Source: the human T2T-CHM13v2.0 reference genome, Homo sapiens | Reading direction: 5' to 3' | Assembly (NCBI GenBank): GCA_009914755.4 | Contig: CP086569.2 | Span: 3,392,001 to 3,456,000, forward strand | Length of the DNA: 64,000 nt | In this document: positions 20,536-60,150 of the stretch, one piece after another | How the letters are laid out: every line of letters begins with the position of its first letter | Numbering within the stretch: position 1 is the first letter of the stretch | Notes under the pieces: generated by a model | The model's input: only the letters and a program-made list of their open reading frames with translations | Databases searched by the model: none | Told to the model about the DNA's origin: nothing | Made by a program: the position numbers and the translations under genes

Positions 20536-20946
<411 letters not shown>

Positions 20947-44496: not shown

Positions 44497-44964
<468 letters not shown>

Positions 44965-45166
44965 TTATATGACAATAAAATCTATGGGGTAATTTTTTTC
45001 CCTCCCCTCCCCTGCCTACCCCAAATCAAAATTTTTAAATCTGATCAAGCCTCTGGGTCCAACTACCCATTTACAGGAACTAAAGGACAGAGGAACATAA
45101 TAAACACCACCACAGAGATGTAATCAGACCATGGGAATCTATACCACAAACATAATATATATTCTT

Positions 45167-45383
45167 TTATTTTTTTTTTTTTTGAGATGGGGTCTTGCTC
45201 TGTCAACCAGGCTGTAATGCAATGGCAGAATCTTGGCTCCCTGCAAACTTGAACTCCTGTACTCAAGCAATCTTCCCACTTCAGCTTCCTGAGTAGCTGG
45301 GACTACAGGTGTGCACCACCACACCCAGCTAATTTTTTAATTTTTTGTAGAAACAGTGTCTCACTATGTTGCCCAGGCTGGTG
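45167..45383 (-). mobile_element. truncated Alu (minus orientation, right monomer and part of left)
   Basis: Poly-T then gagatggggtcttgctctgtcaaccaggctgtaatgcaatggcagaatcttggctccctgcaaac...agaaacagtgtctcactatgttgcccaggctggtg. Confidence 0.9.
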
Positions 45384-45518
45384 ATCTATATTTTTTACAA
45401 AGTGTCATGAAAAAATATTGATGGAGAACCTGTGGATTAAAAGAGGCTTAAGAGACATATGCATTGCAACTACATTATTTTGATATTTTGACCATTACTC
45501 AAAATACATTCACTGAAG

Positions 45519-45562
45519 TGTGTGTGTGTGCATGCGTGTGTGTGTGTGTGTGTCTGTATGTG
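45519..45562. repeat. (TG)n microsatellite
   Basis: gtgtgtgtgtgtgcatgcgtgtgtgtgtgtgtgtgtctgtatgtg. Confidence 0.9.
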
Positions 45563-45584
45563 GTGAGGAAGAGAGAGAGAAATT

Positions 45585-45892
45585 GGCTGGGCGTGGTGGC
45601 TCACGCCTGTAATCCCAGCACTTTGGGAGGCTGAGGCAGGCAGATCATGAGGTCAGGAGATCGAGACCATCCTGGCTAACACGGTGAAACCCCGTCTCTA
45701 CTAAAAATACAAAAAAATTAGCCAAGCATGGTGGTGGGTGCCTGTAGTCCCAGCTACTTGGGAGGCTGAGGCAGGAGAATGGCGTGAACTCAGGAGGCAG
45801 AGCTTGCAGTAAGCCAAGATCGCGCCACTGCACTCCAGCCAGGGTGACAGAGTGAGACTCCATCTGAAAAAAAAAAAAAAAAAAAAAAAAAA
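45585..45892 (+). mobile_element. young AluY-like SINE with 27-nt poly-A and perfect 11-bp TSD
   Basis: ggctgggcgtggtggctcacgcctgtaatcccagcactttgggaggctgaggcaggcagatcatgaggtcaggagatcgagaccatcctggctaacacggtgaaaccccgtctctactaaaaatacaaaaaaattagcc...ctccatctg followed by (a)27. TSD agagagaaatt on both sides. Confidence 0.95.
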
Positions 45893-46356
45893 GAGAGAAA
45901 TTTTGGGGACAGTGGAAATTTGAACACTGACTAGATAATTAATGAAAAGGAAATATTGTTAGTTTTTAGGTGTGATAATGGCATTGTGTTATGATTTTTT
46001 AAAGATTCCTTCCTTTTTTTAACTTTTTGTCTTGAAATAATTATAGATGCATAGGAAGTTGCTAAAACAGTAAAGTTTCCATGTATCCTTAAGTTTCGCT
46101 GAATGTTAGCATTATAAATAACTGTAGTAAATTATTAAATCCAGGAAATTGAAATTGGTACAATCACCAGCCTTATTCAGATGCCATCAGTTTTATATGC
46201 ATTTGTGTGTATGGGTGTGTATTTAGTTCATGTAATTTTAGCATATGTGTAGATTTGTATGACTACAACCACAATCCAGATAAAGAAGTGTTTCAACACC
46301 TCAAGGATCCTTGCTACTGCTCTTTTATTGTATTTGTAGTTATTTAATTATTTATT

Positions 46357-46506
46357 TAGAGTCAGGATCTCACGCTGTCTCTCAGGCTGGAGTGCAGTGG
46401 TGCTATTACGGCTCACTGCAGCCTCAACCTCTGGGCCCAAGAAATCCTTCCATCTCAATCTCCAAAAGTGCTGGGATTATAGGTGTGAGACACCATACTC
46501 AGCCCA
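46357..46506 (-). mobile_element. Alu with internal deletion (about 150 bp remaining), minus orientation
   Basis: tagagtcaggatctcacgctgtctctcaggctggagtgcagtggtgctattacggctcactgcagcctcaacctctgggcccaag then jumps to ...tctccaaaagtgctgggattataggtgtgagacaccatactcagcc. Confidence 0.8.
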
Positions 46507-47449: not shown

Positions 47450-50240
47450 CAACTCCCAATTATGAGTGAGAACATTCAGTGTTTGGTTTTCTGTTCCTAT
47501 GTTAGTTTGCTGAGACTGATGGTTTCCAGCTCCATCCACGTCCCTGCAAAGGACATAAACTCATCCTTTGTTATGGCTGCATAGTATTCCATGTCGTATA
47601 TGTGCCACATTTTCTTTATCCAGTATATCACTGATGGGCATTTGGGTTGGTTCTAAGTCTTTGCTATTGTGAACAGTGCTGCAATAAACATGTATGTGCA
47701 TGTGTCTTTAGAGTAGAATGATTTATGATCCTTTGGGTATATACCCAGTAATGGGATGGCTGGGTCAAATGGTATTTCTGGTTCTAGATCCTTGAGGAAT
47801 CGCCACACTGTCTTCCACAATGGTTGAACTAATTTAGACTCCCAACAACAGTATAAAAGATTTCCTATTTGTCCACATCCTCTCCAGCATCTGTTGTTTC
47901 CTGACTTTATAATGATTACCATTCTAACTGGCATGAGATGGTATCTCATTGTGGTTTTGATTTGCATTTCTCTAATGACCAGTAATGATGAGCTTTTTTT
48001 CATATGTTTGTTGGCTGCATAAATGTCTTCTTTTGAGAAGTATCTGTTCATATCCTTGGCCCACTTTTTGATGGGGTTGTTTGTTTTTCTCTTGTAAATT
48101 TGTTTAAGTTCTTTGTAGATTCTAGATATTAGCCCTTTGTCAGATGAATAGATTGCAAATATTTTCTCCCATTCTGTAGGTTGCCTGTTCATTCTGATGA
48201 TAGTTTCTTTTGCTGTACAGAAGCTCTTTAGTTTAATTATATCCCATTTGTCAATTTTGGCTTTTGTTGCCATTGCTTTTGGTGTTTTAGTGGTAAAGTC
48301 TATGCCCATGCCTATGCCTGTATGGTATAGCATAGGTGTTCTTCTAGGGTTTTTATGGTTTTTGGTCTGACATTTAAGTCTTTATTCCACCTTGAGTTAA
48401 TTTTTGTATAAGGTGTAAGCAAGGAGTCCAGTTTCAGTTTTCTGCATATGGCTAGCCAGTTTTCCCAACACCATTTATTAAATAGGGAATCCTTTCTCCA
48501 TTGCTTGTTTTTGTCTGGTTTGTCAAAGATCAGATTGTTGTATATGTGTGGGGTTATTTCTGAGGCCTCTGTTCTATTCCATTGGTCTATATATCTGTTT
48601 TGGTACCAGTAGCATGCTGTTTTGGTTACCATAGCTTTGTAGTATAGTTTGAAGTCAGGTAGCATGATGCCTCCAACTTTGTTCATTTTGCTTAGGATTG
48701 TCTTGGCTATACAGGCTCTTTTCTGGTTCCATATGAAATTTAAAGTAGTTTTTTTCTAATTCTGTGAAGAAAGTCAATGGTAGCTTGATGAGGATAGCAT
48801 TGAATCTATAAATTACCTTGGGCACTATGGGCATTTTCACAATATTTATTCTCCCTATGCATGAGCATGGAATGTTTTTCCATTTGTTTGTGTCCTCTCT
48901 CATTTCATTGAGCAGTGGTTTTTAGTTCTCCTTCAAGAGGTCCTTCACATCCCTTGTAAATTGTATTCCTAGGTATTTTATTTTCTTTGTAGCAATTGTG
49001 AGTGGAAGTTCATTCACGATTTGGCTCTCTGTTTGTCTATGAGTGGTATATAGGAATGTTTGTGATTTTTGCACATTGATTTTGTATCCTGAGACGTTGC
49101 TGAAGTTGCTTATCAGCTTAAGGAGAATTTGGGCTGAGACAATGGGGTTTTCTAAATACACAATCATGTCATCTGCAAACAGAGACAATTTGACTTCCTC
49201 TCTTCCCATGTGAATACCCTTTATTTCTTTCTCTTGCCTGATTGCTCTGGCCAGAACTTCCAATAATCTGTTGAATAGGAGTGGTGAGAGAGGGCATCCT
49301 TGTCTTGTGCCAGTTTTCAAAGGGAATGCTTTTAGCTTTTGCCCATTCAGTATGATATTGGCTTTGGTTTCATCATAAATAGCTCTTATTATTTTGAGAT
49401 ACATTCCATCAATACCTAGTTTATTGAGAGTTTTTAGCATGAAGGAGTGTTGAATTTTATCCAAGGCCTTTTCTGCATCTATTGAGATAATCGTGTGATT
49501 TTTGTCATTGCTTCTGTTTATGTGATGGATTATGTTTGTTGATTGGCATATGTTGAAACAGCCTTGCATCCCAGGGATGAAGCCAACTTGGTTGTGGTGG
49601 ATAAGCTTTTTGATGTGCTGCTGGATTCAGTCTGCCAGTATTTTATTGAGGATTTTCACATGGATATTCATTAGGGATATTGGCCTGAAATTTTTTTGTG
49701 TGTGTCTCTGCCAGGTTTTGGTATCAGGATGATGCTGGCCTCATAAAATTAGTTAGGGAGGATTCCCTCTTTTTCTATTGTTTTGAATAGTTGCAGAAGG
49801 AATGGTACCAGCTCCCTTTTGTAGCTTTGGTAGAATTCGGCTGTGAATCCATCCAGTCCTGGGCTTTTCTTGGCTGGTAGACTATTAATTACTGCCTCAT
49901 TTTCAGAACTTGTTATTGATCTATTGAGGGATTCAACTTCTTCCTGGCTTAGTCTTGGGAGGGTGTATGTGTCCAGGAATTTAGCCATTTCTTCGAGATT
50001 TTCTAATTTATTTGCAAGGAGGTTTTTATAGTATTCTCTGATGGTAGTTTGTATTCCTGTGGGATCAGTGGTGATATCCCCTTTATCATATTTTAATCAT
50101 CATTTTTGTCTATTTGATTCTTCTCTCTTTTCTTATTAATCTGGTTAGCAGTCTATCTATTTTGTTAATCTTTTCAAAAAACCACCTCCTGGATTCATTG
50201 ATTTTTTCGAAGGGTTTTTCATACCTCTATCTCCTTCAGC
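47450..50240 (-). pseudogene. L1 ORF2p C-terminal about 930 aa (broken by a few stops and frameshifts)
   Basis: 226-aa and 215-aa minus ORFs translate to canonical L1 ORF2 sequence (...[41 protein letters not shown]...; ...[40 protein letters not shown]...). Confidence 0.9.
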
Positions 50241-56340: not shown

Positions 56341-57140
56341 TCAGGGTTTTCCAGAGAGACACAGCCCACTGAACATATATACAGTTGTCCATCACTATCT
56401 GCAGGGCATTGGTTCTAAAATCCAAAGATACCCACGTCCCTTATATTAAATAGCATAGAACAGTAAGCACTCTGTGTCTGTAGGTGTAGAACCTAAGGAT
56501 ATGTAGGTCCTATTGTCAAGAGATGTACATGAGAAGGAATTTATTAGAGGAATTGGCTCACTTGTTTATGAAGGCTGAGAATTCCCACAATAAGCCATCT
56601 GCAAGCTGGAGAACCAAAGAATCTTTAGTGTGGTTCAGTTCAAGTCCAAAGACCTTAGAACCAAGGAAGCTGATGTTGCAGCTCTCCGAGGCTGATAGTT
56701 TGGGAGGTGGCTGGTACAAATCCCAGAGTCCAAAAGCTGGAGAACCTGAAGTTCTGATATCCAAGAGCATGAGAAGAAAAACACCCAAGCTCAGGAAGAA
56801 AGTTCCAATTTACCTCTTTGTTACTTCTGGGACTCAGCTGATTGGATGATGCCCACCCACATTGTGGGCAATTCTTCCCACTCAGTCCACCCAATCAATG
56901 TCCAATCTCCAGCAGAAATACTCTCATGAACCCAACTGGGACAGCACAACCACTCTAACTAAATGCCAAACCACCTGGATTCTCTTTCAACAGAAATGGG
57001 ATGGGCTCAATGCCTACTGAAGCATTGAGAATAAGTGATGTTTTGTTAGCTAGTGAATATCCCTTAATCCAGCCAAGTTGACACCCAAAATAAATCATCA
57101 CAAGTTCATCCCTTGTCAACTTGGCACCATATGCCTCTCC
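56336..57140 (-). mobile_element. MLT1-like MaLR LTR (minus orientation)
   Basis: Antisense MaLR hallmarks: tgttttagtcagggttttccagagagacacagcc at one end, ...ggctgattggatgatgcccacccacattgtgggcaattcttcccactcagtccacccaatc... in the middle, ...aatccagccaagttgacacccaaaataaatcatcacaag at the other (complement of tgtgayrggttrata...gtgtcaacttg). Confidence 0.55.
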
Positions 57141-57545
57141 TTAAACCATACTTAATCTTGAAATAAAGGCAATAGCAAGGTGGTAGTTTCACCTAGCATG
57201 ATGAAAATATATTGAATACAACAAAAATGCATTAATATATTCCCCAGAAGAGGAGATAAAGTCCTTGAGTGATGATTATTCTTCTCCAGATATTCTGTAA
57301 CTTAAATACCATGACATAAAATTAGAAATATTTAAATATTGATAGAACTCTACATGTATCTATCAAGGATATTTTCTTAATATATGTATATATACAAACA
57401 TACATATTCCTAACAAAATAGGAAGAAAATACAGCCCTTGTTTCTATAAGTGGTCATATGGTCATTGCTGATATTTATAACTACCTTCTAATATCCATTA
57501 TGTATTCTGTTTGTTTTCAGCAAACACCTTAGCTAATCATGATTC

Positions 57546-57643
57546 TTTACCTTCTGGTGAACTGATCCAAACCTTTACTTATTTTCTTCCTTTTTTCCTC
57601 TCTCCTTCCCTCCCTCCCTCTTTCTTCCTTTCTTTCTTCCTTC

Positions 57644-57690
<47 letters not shown>

Positions 57691-58240
57691 TCCTTCCTTC
57701 CTTCCTTCCTTCCTTCCTTCCTTCCTTCTTTCCTTCTTTCCTTCATTTCTTCTTTCTTTCTCTTTACCTTCTGGGAAACTGATCCAAACCTTTACTTACT
57801 TTCTATTTTTCTCTATTTTTCTTTCTCTATTTTTTTCTCTCCTTCCTTCCTTCCTTCCTTCCTTCCTTCCTTCCTTCCTTCCTTCCTTCTCTTTACCTTC
57901 TGGCGAAGTAACCCAAACGTTTACTTTCTTTCTCTTTTTCTCTTTTTTTCTTTATTTTTCTTTCTCTGTTCTTTTTCTCTCCTTCCTTCCTTCCTTCCTT
58001 CCTTCCTTCCTTCCTTCCTTCCTTCCTTCCTTCTTTCCCTCCTTCTTTCTCTTTACCTTCTGGTGAACTGACTCGAACCTTTACTTACTTTCTTTCTATT
58101 TTTCTCTATTTTTTCTCTTTCTTCCTGTCCTTTCCTTTCTTTTCCTTTCCTTTCCTTTCCTTTCCTTTCCTTTCCTTTCCTTTCCTTTCCTCTCTTTCTC
58201 TTTCTCTCTTTCTCTTCCTTCCCTTCCCTTCCCTTTCCTC

Positions 58241-58304
<64 letters not shown>

Positions 58305-58330
58305 TTTCTTTCTTTCTTTTTCTTTCTTTC
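57546..58330. repeat. composite higher-order tandem repeat (VNTR): 4 copies of a 37-bp anchor, each followed by (TTCC)n/(TTTC)n/(CTTT)n blocks
   Basis: Anchor ctttaccttctggtgaactgatccaaacctttactta at about 57546, 57759, 57888, 58047 (a few substitutions each), separated by cttccttccttcc / tttctttctttc runs. Units about 213, 129, 159, 280 bp. Source of ORFs 57511-58071 and 58053-58379. Confidence 0.85.
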
Positions 58331-58618
58331 TACAGGGTCTCACTCTGTCACCCAAGCTAGAGTGCAGTGCTGAGATCATAGCTCACTGCAGCATTAAACT
58401 CTGGGCTCAAGCAGTCCTACTGCCTCAGTCTCTTGAGTAGCTGGGACTACAGACACGCAGAACCATGCCTGGTTAATTTTTTTTTTTCATTTTTATTTTT
58501 GTAGAAATGGGGTATTGCTAGGTTACCCAGGCTAGTCTGAAATTCCTGACCTCAAACGATCTTTGTGCCTTGGCTTTCCAATGTGCTGGGATTACAGACA
58601 TGAGCCACCAAGCTCAGC
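58330..58618 (-). mobile_element. Alu SINE (minus orientation) whose tail abuts the VNTR
   Basis: acagggtctcactctgtcacccaagctagagtgcagtgctgagatcatagctcactgcagc...gacatgagccaccaagctcagc. Its poly-A end (poly-T on the plus strand) faces the (TTTC)n array. Confidence 0.95.
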
Positions 58619-58619
58619 T

Positions 58620-60150
58620 CAAACCTTTATTTCTGAAGGGTCGGAGCCATTCGTAGTCCTGCTTGAATTGGGTTGTTGTAATTTCCCATTGACCTTAATC
58701 ACAGGACATACTAATACTAAGAGGTGCCCTAAGGGATCTACTGTTTTCCAAACATACTCTCCCTCACTTCTCTTCTGGAGTAGTAGTCCAATCTTATTCT
58801 TGGTAGTTTGAATTAATCACTACAGCCAACACCATTACTCCCCTGTAAGCCTGTTGATTTAGATGCATGAGGAGCCCAAAGTGGCCAGGTGGCAGTTTTA
58901 ACTTCCAGTTTGGTAGAATTACTGTTGTCTCCCATGGTGGAGGCATTCCTTCCTCTGAAACAAAGACCTCTGTGCTAGCAGAGCATAAAGTCACAGAAAT
59001 AATACAAAATTTTTTTTTTCTAGTGGGTTACTAGGATGAATGATGGTGGTGCCATTCTATTTCCACTCCTTGATTCCTGGACCTGTGAATTCTGGCAATT
59101 GGGGGAAACAGTACCATATAGTGAACTTTTATTCAGAACATGTAAAGCCTTCTAGAAGACCTTGCCCAGTCCTGCAAAATATTGCCACCTATCTGGTGCT
59201 GTAACTGTGCCTTCAAAAGGCCATTTTATAGTCTTATCAAGACAACTGCTTCAGGATGATGGGGAGCATGGTAAATCCAGTGCATTTTATGAATATAAGT
59301 CAATTACCACACTTCTTTGTGAAGTGAATTACTTTTAAGAAGCAATGCTGTGTGGAATACTATAATGATGGATAAGGCATTCTGTAAGTCCACAAGTGGT
59401 AGTTTTGTCAAAGCATTGAATGAGGGAAGGTAAATTTATATCCAAATTAAGTGTCTATTCCAGTAAGGACAAAACGTTGTCTCTTCCATGATGAAAGTTG
59501 TCCAATGTAATCAACCTGCCACCAGGTAGCTGGCTTAATACTCTGGGCAATGGTGCTACACTGGGGGCTCAGTGTTGGTCTCTGCTGCAGATAGATTGGA
59601 CACTAGGTGATGACCATAGCCAGGTCAGCCCTGATGATTTTAACTCTATATTGTTGGGCCCAGGCATAACCTCCATCTCAGCTAACATGCTGACTTTGTT
59701 CATAAGCCCATTGGACAATGGCAGTTGGTTAAAGAAAAAGGCTGATTGGATTTCACAGAATAGGTCATTCTATCAATTTGATTATTCAATTCTTCCTCTG
59801 CTGAGGTCACCTTTTGGTGAGCATTTACATGGGACACAATTACCTTTAAGTTCTTTGCCCACTCGGAAAGGTCTACCTTTTCCCAAAATTTCTTTGTCAC
59901 CAATTTTCCATTCGTATTTCTTCCAAGTCCCTGATCATTCAACCAGACTATCTGAGTTCCCCTTTCAGCAGAAGATGGATGTGCTCACTGCCTCCTGAAG
60001 CATTTAGAATAACTAATGCTTTGCCAGATATTTGGGGAATCTTTAATTCAGTCAACTTAACACCGAAAATCAACTACCATTGTATTTGTTGATTCGTTTC
60101 TCATTCAAGTTATGAATGCTCTGGTTCTAAGTAAAATAAATGTTTTTTAA
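58620..60150 (-). pseudogene. HERV-L (ERVL)-like pol remnant: RNase H C-terminus and integrase, minus strand, frameshifted
   Basis: Minus ORF 59700-59942 ...KVIVSHVNAHQKVTSAEEELNNQIDRMT is the RNase H end (HxxGHxG...N..aD). Downstream in another frame: PATWWQVDYIGQLSSWKRQRFVLTGIDT (IN catalytic core, ERVL PATWWQVDYIGPLPSWKGQRFVLTGIDTYSG), and further GLTECLIHHYSIPHSIAS (ERVL RGLTECLIHRHGIPHSIASDQG). Confidence 0.6.

What the first reader, a model, noticed from the sequence alone, without database searches (positions are those of the whole stretch)
57546..58618. Composite higher-order VNTR built from an Alu-tail microsatellite
A 37-bp unique anchor (ctttaccttctggtgaactgatccaaacctttactta) recurs four times with a few substitutions. 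Each copy is followed by different-length (TTCC)n/(TTTC)n/(CTTT)n tracts, giving units of about 130-280 bp. The array ends at the poly-A end of an antisense Alu. (GAAA)n-type tails of Alus are known expansion-prone sequences. Here the unit including flanking unique DNA has been re-duplicated, probably by replication slippage or unequal exchange. Such arrays are often length-polymorphic and can form non-B DNA (H-DNA, from the polypurine/polypyrimidine asymmetry). The 186-aa and 108-aa ORFs in the track are artifacts of this array.
Basis: seen in the sequence. Interest (0 to 1): 0.5.

Follow-up and report, generated by a model that had tools for sequence, protein, structure and literature searches.

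The report
Old Alu-tail repeat duplicated with its flank
The A-rich tail of an ancient Alu element grew into a long T/C-rich simple repeat, and a block made of 23 bases of flank, the Alu's target-site duplication and part of that tail was then copied to four tandem units; this is a tidy but ordinary example of a known kind of primate repeat.

Summary
A 37-nt anchor occurs four times (57545, 57762, 57891, 58051; 0, 2, 6 and 3 mismatches; none expected by chance). Each copy is followed by a 92-244-nt tract that is 98.6% pyrimidine, giving units of 217, 129, 160 and 281 bp. The array abuts the 3' end of an antisense Alu (58332-58619).

- The last 13-14 nt of the anchor (CAAACCTTTACTT) recur directly after the Alu's 5' end (58620, CAAACCTTTATTT). 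This is the Alu's target-site duplication, so the units were copied after the Alu inserted.
- The Alu is an old AluJ-type element (about 15% non-CpG divergence).
- All three internal junctions are the same (TCT|CTTTACC). That points to one founding duplication at a T/C-rich microhomology, then amplification.
- The anchors differ by 5-19%, so the unit copies are old and not being homogenised. Present-day length variation, if any, most likely sits in the pure (CTTT)12-16, (TTCC)9-13 and (TTTCC)10 runs.

The 186-aa and 108-aa ORFs are low-complexity artefacts. "VNTR" status and H-DNA formation could not be tested. This is a known kind of element (TE-derived tandem repeat) and of low interest.

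The parts
57545..57567 (+). Anchor copy 1, unique-flank part (23 nt, CTTTACCTTCTGGTGAACTGATC). This is the original pre-insertion flank, contiguous with the unique DNA to its left.
   Evidence: Homology among units starts sharply at 57544/57545. Upstream of copy 1 is unique sequence; upstream of copies 2-4 is T/C tract.
57568..57581 (+). Anchor copy 1, target-site-duplication part (CAAACCTTTACTTA): the left TSD of the Alu.
   Evidence: the motif CAAACCTTTAYTT occurs only at the four anchors and at 58620. 0 of 100 shuffles give 5 matches.
57582..57761 (+). Tract 1 (180 nt, one purine), containing (CTTT)12 at 57644-57691 and (CCTT)9 at 57692-57727.
57762..57798 (+). Anchor copy 2 (2 mismatches to copy 1).
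57799..57890 (+). Tract 2: T-rich segment with TCTATTTTTC sub-repeats, then (TCCT)12 at 57840-57887.
57891..57927 (+). Anchor copy 3, the most diverged (6 mismatches to copy 1).
57928..58050 (+). Tract 3: T-rich segment colinear with tract 2, then (TCCT)13 at 57980-58031.
58051..58087 (+). Anchor copy 4 (3 mismatches to copy 1), the copy next to the Alu's own tail.
58088..58331 (+). Tract 4, the Alu's tail proper (244 nt). It has a T-rich segment sharing an exact 20-mer with tract 2, then (TTTCC)10 at 58141-58190 and (TCTT)16 at 58241-58304, and runs into the Alu body.
58332..58619 (-). Full-length dimeric Alu, AluJ-like, antisense to the + strand.
   Evidence: best match is to the AluJ consensus (written from memory), 78.5% over 279 nt, 234 bits, against 162 bits for AluSx and 132 for AluY; global alignment gives 14.8% non-CpG divergence, with 22 of 44 CpG positions changed; both arms match Metazoa_SRP below threshold (E 5e-4 and 8e-3).
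58620..58632 (+). Right target-site duplication (CAAACCTTTATTT), immediately after the Alu 5' end and followed by unique DNA.
   Evidence: 12 of 13 identical to the 3' part of anchors 1 and 2.

Best explanation
This is a passive by-product of retrotransposition and repeat instability. It is not a gene or a designed element. The proposed history has five steps.

1. An AluJ-type element inserted by L1-mediated target-primed reverse transcription. This duplicated a 13-15-nt target (CAAACCTTTAYTT on the + strand).
2. The Alu's A-rich tail, read as T/C-rich on the + strand, mutated and expanded into a compound (GAAA)n/(GGAA)n/(GGAAA)n microsatellite.
3. One founding tandem duplication joined a ...TTCT point inside the tail to the flank 23 nt to the left of (on the + strand) the left TSD. 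The flank there reads TTCTTTACCTTCT, which differs by a single extra A from the tail motif TTCTTTCCTTCT. Misaligned pairing at this microhomology, by unequal exchange or template switching, is the likely cause.
4. The resulting block (23-nt flank + TSD + proximal tail) was amplified to four units by unequal exchange or slippage between units. The long perfect (TTCC)n blocks probably helped.
5. Each unit then evolved on its own. Anchors collected 0-6 substitutions and microsatellite runs changed length and motif.

Today the locus is an approximately 790-bp, 98.6% polypyrimidine tract interrupted by four anchors. It is expected to vary in length mainly through its pure tetra- and pentanucleotide runs, and it is capable in principle of forming triplex (H-DNA) structures.

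Steps 1 and 5 are shown by the sequence. For step 3, the single shared junction and the microhomology are shown, but the mechanism is inferred. Steps 2 and 4 are inferred from established knowledge.
For: - TSD: the motif occurs five times in the 64-kb window, in the four anchors and at 58620 directly after the Alu 5' end. 0 of 100 shuffles reach five.
- Alu identity and age: AluJ is the best match, both arms resemble 7SL RNA, and non-CpG divergence is 14.8%.
- Units copied after insertion: in unit 4 the sequence after the anchor is continuous with the Alu tail. It shares an exact 20-mer (CTTTCTATTTTTCTCTATTT) with unit 2. The U2-U4 and U2-U3 alignment scores exceed all 500 shuffles. All units share the T5-7-CTCT transition into (TTCC)n.
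- Single founding event: all three internal junctions read TCT|CTTTACCTTCTGG, whereas the original flank reads GATT|CTTTACC.
- Microhomology: the anchor's 5' end TTCTTTACCTTCT is 12/13 pyrimidine, and TTCTTTCCTTCT occurs in tract 1.
- Unit 4 is the longest and carries motifs absent from units 1-3, (TTTCC)10 among them. This is expected if only the TSD-proximal part of the tail was duplicated.
- Old units: mean anchor divergence from their consensus is 7.4% (Poisson CI 3.7-13.3%), against 14.8% for the Alu.
- Literature: Alu-derived tandem repeats initiated at short direct repeats (Jurka & Gentles 2006; the Haber-Louis model), as summarised in PMC3389668. Alu/L1 tails as a source of microsatellites, PMC3812793.
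Against: - No orthologous or allelic sequence could be obtained. The order and dating of events rest on one sequence and on only 37 sites per anchor.
- The Alu consensus sequences were written from memory, so subfamily and divergence are approximate.
- The tail sequence at the time of the founding duplication is unknown, so the microhomology is inferred from today's motifs.
- Unit 1's tail-proximal segment is not significantly similar to those of units 2-4. It must have been rewritten or partly deleted.
- The anchor mismatch counts (0, 2, 6, 3) are uneven, though compatible with Poisson noise.
Confidence: 0.85

Rival explanations
1. Actively variable higher-order VNTR. Whole 130-280-bp units are still gained and lost in present-day populations, so that individuals differ in the number of anchors.
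For: Units 1-3 carry perfect (TTCC)9-13 blocks of 36-52 nt, spaced 140-190 bp apart. These could misalign and add or remove a whole unit. Long pure tetranucleotide runs are known to be highly mutable; PMC3812793 tabulates pedigree rates around 2-4e-3 per generation for GATA repeats.
Against: The anchors differ by 5-19% and each carries private substitutions. Frequent unequal exchange would homogenise them. Anchor divergence is about half that of the Alu itself, which implies long residence of each copy. No population data could be obtained.
Confidence: 0.2
2. Pre-existing minisatellite. The anchor-plus-T/C-tract array existed before the Alu arrived, and the Alu simply inserted into its last anchor copy.
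For: Under this scenario too, every anchor copy would contain the target sequence, so the TSD motif in all four anchors does not exclude it on its own.
Against: The tract after anchor 4 would then be the Alu's own new tail and should be unrelated to the tracts after anchors 2 and 3. In fact it shares an exact 20-mer and the same TCTATTTTTC sub-repeats at the same offset. The right TSD is followed by unique DNA, not by T/C-rich DNA. A-rich compound repeats are what Alu tails typically become, as in the comparator at 44782-44937.
Confidence: 0.05
3. Reference-assembly artefact. A simpler locus was mis-assembled into several units.
For: Long low-complexity tracts are hard to assemble, and no reads were available to check.
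Against: Mis-assembly of a repeat yields identical or collapsed copies. Here the four anchors carry different substitutions and the tracts have different architectures and lengths.
Confidence: 0.03
4. Chance resemblance among T/C-rich sequences.
For: None beyond the low complexity of the surroundings.
Against: The anchor is not low-complexity (36 A, 40 C, 18 G and 54 T over the four copies). Three copies within 3 mismatches compare with 0.00 expected. The fourth matches 31 of 37, with no other match at <=9 substitutions anywhere in the 64 kb on either strand.
Confidence: 0.005

Closest known systems
Alu-derived minisatellites / TE-derived tandem repeats (Jurka & Gentles 2006, Gene 365:21; Ahmed & Liang 2012, PMC3389668)
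   Same: Both are tandem arrays whose unit contains part of an Alu, initiated at short direct repeats by slippage or unequal exchange (the Haber-Louis model as described in PMC3389668). Here the short homology is TTCTTT(A)CCTTCT.
   Different: The unit here contains only the Alu's tail, not its body, together with the TSD and 23 nt of pre-insertion flank. Units vary in length (129-281 bp), and the anchors are only 81-95% identical. The array is 36.6% G+C. It would therefore have failed the >=40% GC and >=95% unit-identity filters of the 2012 survey, and TRF does not report its period.
Alu/L1 poly(A)-tail microsatellites (Arcot et al. 1995, from my own knowledge; review by Grandi & An 2013, PMC3812793)
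   Same: A-rich compound (GAAA)n/(GGAA)n repeats grow out of the 3' tail of an old Alu. The same window holds an ordinary example at 44782-44937.
   Different: Ordinary tail microsatellites stay between the Alu body and the TSD. Here the TSD and flank have been carried into the repeat and now occur four times.
Disease-associated pentanucleotide expansions in Alu tails (RFC1 AAGGG in CANVAS, DAB1 ATTTC in SCA37; from my own knowledge, not checked here)
   Same: Origin in an Alu tail. The locus contains a pure pentanucleotide run, (TTTCC)10, which is (GGAAA)10 on the Alu's strand.
   Different: There is no evidence of expansion, the gene context is unknown, and the motif differs. This is a resemblance of origin only.
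GGAA microsatellites used as EWS-FLI1/ETS-responsive elements (from my own knowledge, not checked here)
   Same: Three runs of 9-13 consecutive GGAA on the - strand.
   Different: No binding, chromatin or expression data exist for this locus. Thousands of such runs exist in primate genomes and most are inert.

Membership tests
Alu SINE (AluJ-type) | A dimeric element of about 280-300 bp, alignable along its whole length to the Alu consensus, with an A-rich linker between the arms. | tested here: met
   global alignment over positions 1-282, with an expanded A-rich linker; 78.5% identity over 279 nt to the AluJ consensus. Caveat: the consensus was written from memory.
Alu SINE (AluJ-type) | Derivation from 7SL (SRP) RNA. 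| tested here: inconclusive
   both arms hit Rfam Metazoa_SRP (E 5e-4 and 8e-3, 22.7 and 18.7 bits), far below the gathering score of 70. This is expected for an old Alu.
Alu SINE (AluJ-type) | Flanked by a target-site duplication, with an A-rich tail at the 3' end. | tested here: met
   CAAACCTTTAYTT lies at the tail side (the anchors) and directly after the 5' end (58620); a 244-nt tract on the tail side, which is A/G-rich on the Alu's strand.
Alu SINE (AluJ-type) | Subfamily-diagnostic positions favour J over S and Y. | tested here: met
   234 bits for AluJ, 162 for AluSx and 132 for AluY. Consensus sequences from memory, so the J sub-type (Jo/Jb) is not resolved.
TE-derived tandem repeat of Haber-Louis / Jurka-Gentles type | Two or more head-to-tail units containing TE-derived sequence. 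| tested here: met
   four units, each made of an anchor plus Alu-tail-derived tract.
TE-derived tandem repeat of Haber-Louis / Jurka-Gentles type | Short direct repeats (about 5-20 bp) at the borders of the founding unit. | tested here: inconclusive
   the flank TTCTTTACCTTCT differs from the tail motif TTCTTTCCTTCT by a 1-nt indel, and all internal junctions are identical (TCT|CTTTACC). The tail sequence at the time of the event cannot be recovered.
VNTR (variable number of tandem repeats) | The number of units differs among individuals of the species. | not testable with these tools
   No second copy of the locus was found. Anchor divergence of 5-19% argues against rapid unit turnover.
Microsatellite | Uninterrupted runs of 1-6-nt units, long enough to slip (about 8 or more units). 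| tested here: met
   (CTTT)12, (CCTT)9, (TCCT)12, (TCCT)13, (TTTCC)10 and (TCTT)16.
H-DNA (intramolecular triplex)-forming sequence | A homopurine/homopyrimidine mirror repeat with arms of at least about 10-15 nt. | tested here: met
   five perfect pyrimidine mirror repeats with arms of 24-32 nt; purine-free runs of 163, 65, 86 and 204 nt.
H-DNA (intramolecular triplex)-forming sequence | Actual triplex formation under supercoiling, or in vivo. | not testable with these tools
Protein-coding gene (the 186-aa and 108-aa ORFs) | Similarity to a protein family, or a non-repetitive composition. | tested here: not met
   the translations are SFFL/LPSF and KERK/KEGR repeats; no Pfam family; the 186-aa product is not on record in the gene-position collection.

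The most novel reading that the evidence does not exclude
The most novel reading not excluded is that the locus is still a multi-allelic higher-order repeat. Whole anchor-containing units would be gained or lost by misalignment of the perfect (TTCC)9-13 blocks. Its three clustered (GGAA)n runs and long triplex-prone tracts would give it a biological effect, for example as an ETS/EWS-FLI1-responsive element or a replication-stalling, fragile site. In that case allele structure, and not only length, would matter.
Probability: 0.1. Interest if true: 0.35.

Novelty: new member of a known kind. Interest (0 to 1): 0.12.

Why it matters
In itself it matters little. Primate genomes hold many thousands of Alu-tail microsatellites, and TE-derived tandem repeats are a described class.

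Two modest points are worth keeping:
- The locus is an unusually legible example of how a microsatellite can capture its unique flank and the retrotransposon's target-site duplication into a longer-period repeat. The founding junction and the microhomology are still readable.
- Arrays of this sort have variable unit length, low G+C and diverged units. TRF does not report their period, and the filters of a published TE-derived-minisatellite survey would have excluded them. They are therefore probably under-counted, and genotyping tools that assume a single flank-repeat boundary could mis-call such loci.

Tried and rejected
- TRF on 56500-60000 at minimum score 30. It reports only periods of 4-26 and misses the 129-281-bp units. 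The repeat finder returns only shifted microsatellite self-matches. Neither tool shows the higher-order structure; the anchors had to be located by pattern search.
- Scan of metagenome contigs with a degenerate pattern covering all four anchor variants and with a 28-mer from the unique right flank. Both gave 0 hits, so no allelic or orthologous copy was available.
- The look-up of encoding contigs with the 186-aa array ORF and the 82-aa ORF spanning the Alu 5' end and right flank. Neither is on record.
- Short-read contigs cannot span 48-64-nt pure microsatellite runs, so even a hit could not show the array.
- Rfam at gathering threshold over the whole window found nothing. Only the permissive search shows the 7SL resemblance.
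- Reading Jurka & Gentles 2006 directly: not held. It is cited through PMC3389668.
- Pfam on the ORF at 59700-59942(-), which looked retroviral to me: no significant match, so that impression stays untested.
- Rejected ideas: chance resemblance; coding potential of the ORFs; a pre-existing array (and the unique DNA after the right TSD).
- I could not identify the genomic locus or species, since no vertebrate genome collection is available here.

Full report
**Setting.** The window is primate-type DNA. It is 35.3% G+C with a CpG observed/expected ratio of 0.16. It holds about fifteen Alu copies and an L1 reverse-transcriptase fragment (RVT_1, E 4e-32). No Rfam family reaches its gathering score anywhere in the window.

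- The 37-nt anchor CTTTACCTTCTGGTGAACTGATCCAAACCTTTACTTA is found at 57545, 57762 and 58051 with 0, 2 and 3 mismatches. The expectation in 100 dinucleotide-preserving shuffles is 0.00.
- A fourth, more diverged copy (6 mismatches) lies at 57891. At up to 9 substitutions there is no other match on either strand of the 64 kb.
- Pairwise identity among the anchors is 30-35 of 37. The anchor is not low-complexity; the four copies together hold 36 A, 40 C, 18 G and 54 T.
- The units measure 217, 129, 160 and 281 bp.
- Between the anchors lie 639 nt with only nine purines. These tracts include the pure runs (CTTT)12, (CCTT)9, (TCCT)12, (TCCT)13, (TTTCC)10 and (TCTT)16.
- The array (57545-58331, 787 bp) runs straight into the 3' end of an antisense Alu.
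Otherwise the description is accurate.
Its longest period is 26, because the units differ in length.

**What the anchor is.**
- Immediately after the Alu's 5' end, the right flank reads CAAACCTTTATTT (58620-58632). The last part of the anchor reads CAAACCTTTACTT.
- With one mismatch allowed, this 13-mer occurs exactly five times in the window: in the four anchors and at 58620. None of 100 shuffles gives five matches.
- This is therefore the Alu's target-site duplication. The anchor is 23 nt of pre-insertion flank plus the left TSD.
- Read on the Alu's strand, the empty site would be ...CCCTTCAG/AAATAAAGGTTTG/GATCAGTTCACC.... The TSD starts A-rich, as expected for L1-endonuclease-mediated insertion. 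That last point is an inference from established knowledge of target-primed reverse transcription.

**The Alu.**
- The element at 58332-58619 (- strand) aligns along its whole length to an Alu consensus. It fits AluJ best (234 bits, against 162 for AluSx and 132 for AluY).
- Non-CpG divergence is 14.8%, and 22 of 44 CpG positions have changed.
- Both arms resemble 7SL RNA below Rfam's threshold.
- The consensus sequences were written from memory, so these numbers are approximate.
- AluJ is the oldest dimeric Alu group (Kapitonov & Jurka 1996, listed in the references of PMC3389668).

**Were the units copied after the Alu arrived?** Yes, on three grounds.
- In unit 4 the sequence after the anchor is physically continuous with the Alu tail. 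Its first part shares an exact 20-mer (CTTTCTATTTTTCTCTATTT) and the same TCTATTTTTC sub-repeats with unit 2, and it is colinear with unit 3. The U2-U4 and U2-U3 alignment scores exceed all 500 composition-matched shuffles.
- All four units share the transition T5-7-CTCT(CC) into (TTCC)n.
- The right TSD is followed by unique DNA, not by T/C-rich DNA.
- A pre-existing array hit by the Alu would not make the Alu's own tail homologous to the older tracts.

**How the array arose.**
- The three internal junctions are the same...TCT|CTTTACCTTCTGG. The original flank reads GATT|CTTTACC. One founding duplication is therefore enough, and the later copies inherited its junction.
- The flank at the breakpoint, TTCTTTACCTTCT, is 12/13 pyrimidine. 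It differs by one extra A from TTCTTTCCTTCT, a motif present in the tail.
- This is the short direct homology that the Haber-Louis / Jurka-Gentles model needs to start a tandem repeat by slippage or unequal exchange (as summarised in PMC3389668).
- Unit 4 is the longest. It alone carries (TTTCC)10, a CT-rich segment, (CCCTT)3 and the Alu-proximal (TCTT)16. That fits duplication of only the TSD-proximal part of the tail.
- Going from two units to four is most simply explained by unequal exchange between units. This step is inferred.

**Age and dynamics.**
- The anchors differ from their consensus by 11 substitutions in 148 sites, or 7.4% (Poisson 95% interval 3.7-13.3%). That is about half the Alu's non-CpG divergence.
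- The unit copies are therefore old, very roughly half the age of the Alu, and they have not been homogenised. This argues against frequent unit-level exchange today.
- Length variation is more likely to come from the pure runs of 9-16 units. Tetranucleotide runs of this length have pedigree mutation rates around 1e-3 per generation (table in PMC3812793).
- The perfect 36-52-nt (TTCC)n blocks in units 1-3 could still occasionally misalign and add or remove a whole unit. I give this 0.2.
- No allelic or orthologous sequence could be obtained: two metagenome scans and two exact-ORF look-ups returned nothing.

**Structure-forming potential.** Purine-free runs of 163, 65, 86 and 204 nt and five perfect pyrimidine mirror repeats with arms of 24-32 nt meet the sequence requirement for H-DNA. 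Whether it forms is not testable here.

**ORFs.** The 186-aa (+) and 108-aa (-) ORFs translate to SFFL/LPSF and KERK repeats, have no Pfam family and are not on record as gene products. They are artefacts of reading a simple repeat in frame.

**Comparison and verdict.**
- The locus is an ordinary Alu-tail microsatellite. A plain one sits in the same window at 44782-44937.
- What it adds is that it captured its TSD and 23 nt of flank into a four-unit tandem repeat. This belongs to the described class of TE-derived tandem repeats (PMC3389668; Jurka & Gentles 2006).
- It differs from the typical catalogued cases. The unit holds tail plus flank rather than Alu body, and the units are length-variable, low in G+C (36.6%) and diverged. 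It falls outside that survey's filters and outside what TRF reports.
- It is a new member of a known kind and of low interest. The 'VNTR' and 'non-B DNA' parts remain untested.

Noticed in passing
window 44513-44937: A second old AluJ-like element (+ strand, 44513-44781) has a 156-nt pure-purine compound tail (GAAA/GGAA/GGAAA, 44782-44937) with no duplication of its flank. It serves as an internal example of the ordinary state. The 142-aa and 130-aa ORFs over it (44547-45123) are the same kind of low-complexity artefact.
   Followed up: partly
window 47653-49569 (- strand): An L1 ORF2 fragment. The 215-aa ORF at 48922-49569 matches Pfam RVT_1 at E 4e-32. The 226-aa ORF at 47653-48333 looks like the ORF2 C-terminal region but has no Pfam hit.
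   Followed up: partly
window 58349-58407 (+) and 58424-58475 (-): Sub-threshold Rfam hits to mir-3135 (29.4 bits, gathering score 80) and mir-1268 (15.4 bits, gathering score 83) inside the Alu body. They most likely reflect Alu-derived miRNA families and not a miRNA gene here.
   Followed up: no
window 59498-59998: Overlapping ORFs of 166 aa (+) and 80 aa (-). The 80-aa product contains ...VSHVNAHQKVTSAEEELNNQIDRM..., which reminded me of the end of a retroviral pol (RNase H/integrase boundary). This may be an old ERV fragment about 1 kb to the right of the Alu. Pfam gave no significant match, so it is unconfirmed.
   Followed up: partly
window 20668-20946 (- strand): The youngest-looking Alu in the window, 96.4% identical to the AluY consensus written from memory. 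This suggests a catarrhine (human or ape-like) source genome.
   Followed up: no
window 44513-46495: A cluster of four Alu copies or fragments within 2 kb (44513-44781 +, 45184-45382 -, 45585-45858 +, 46359-46495 -), just to the left of the L1 fragment.
   Followed up: no
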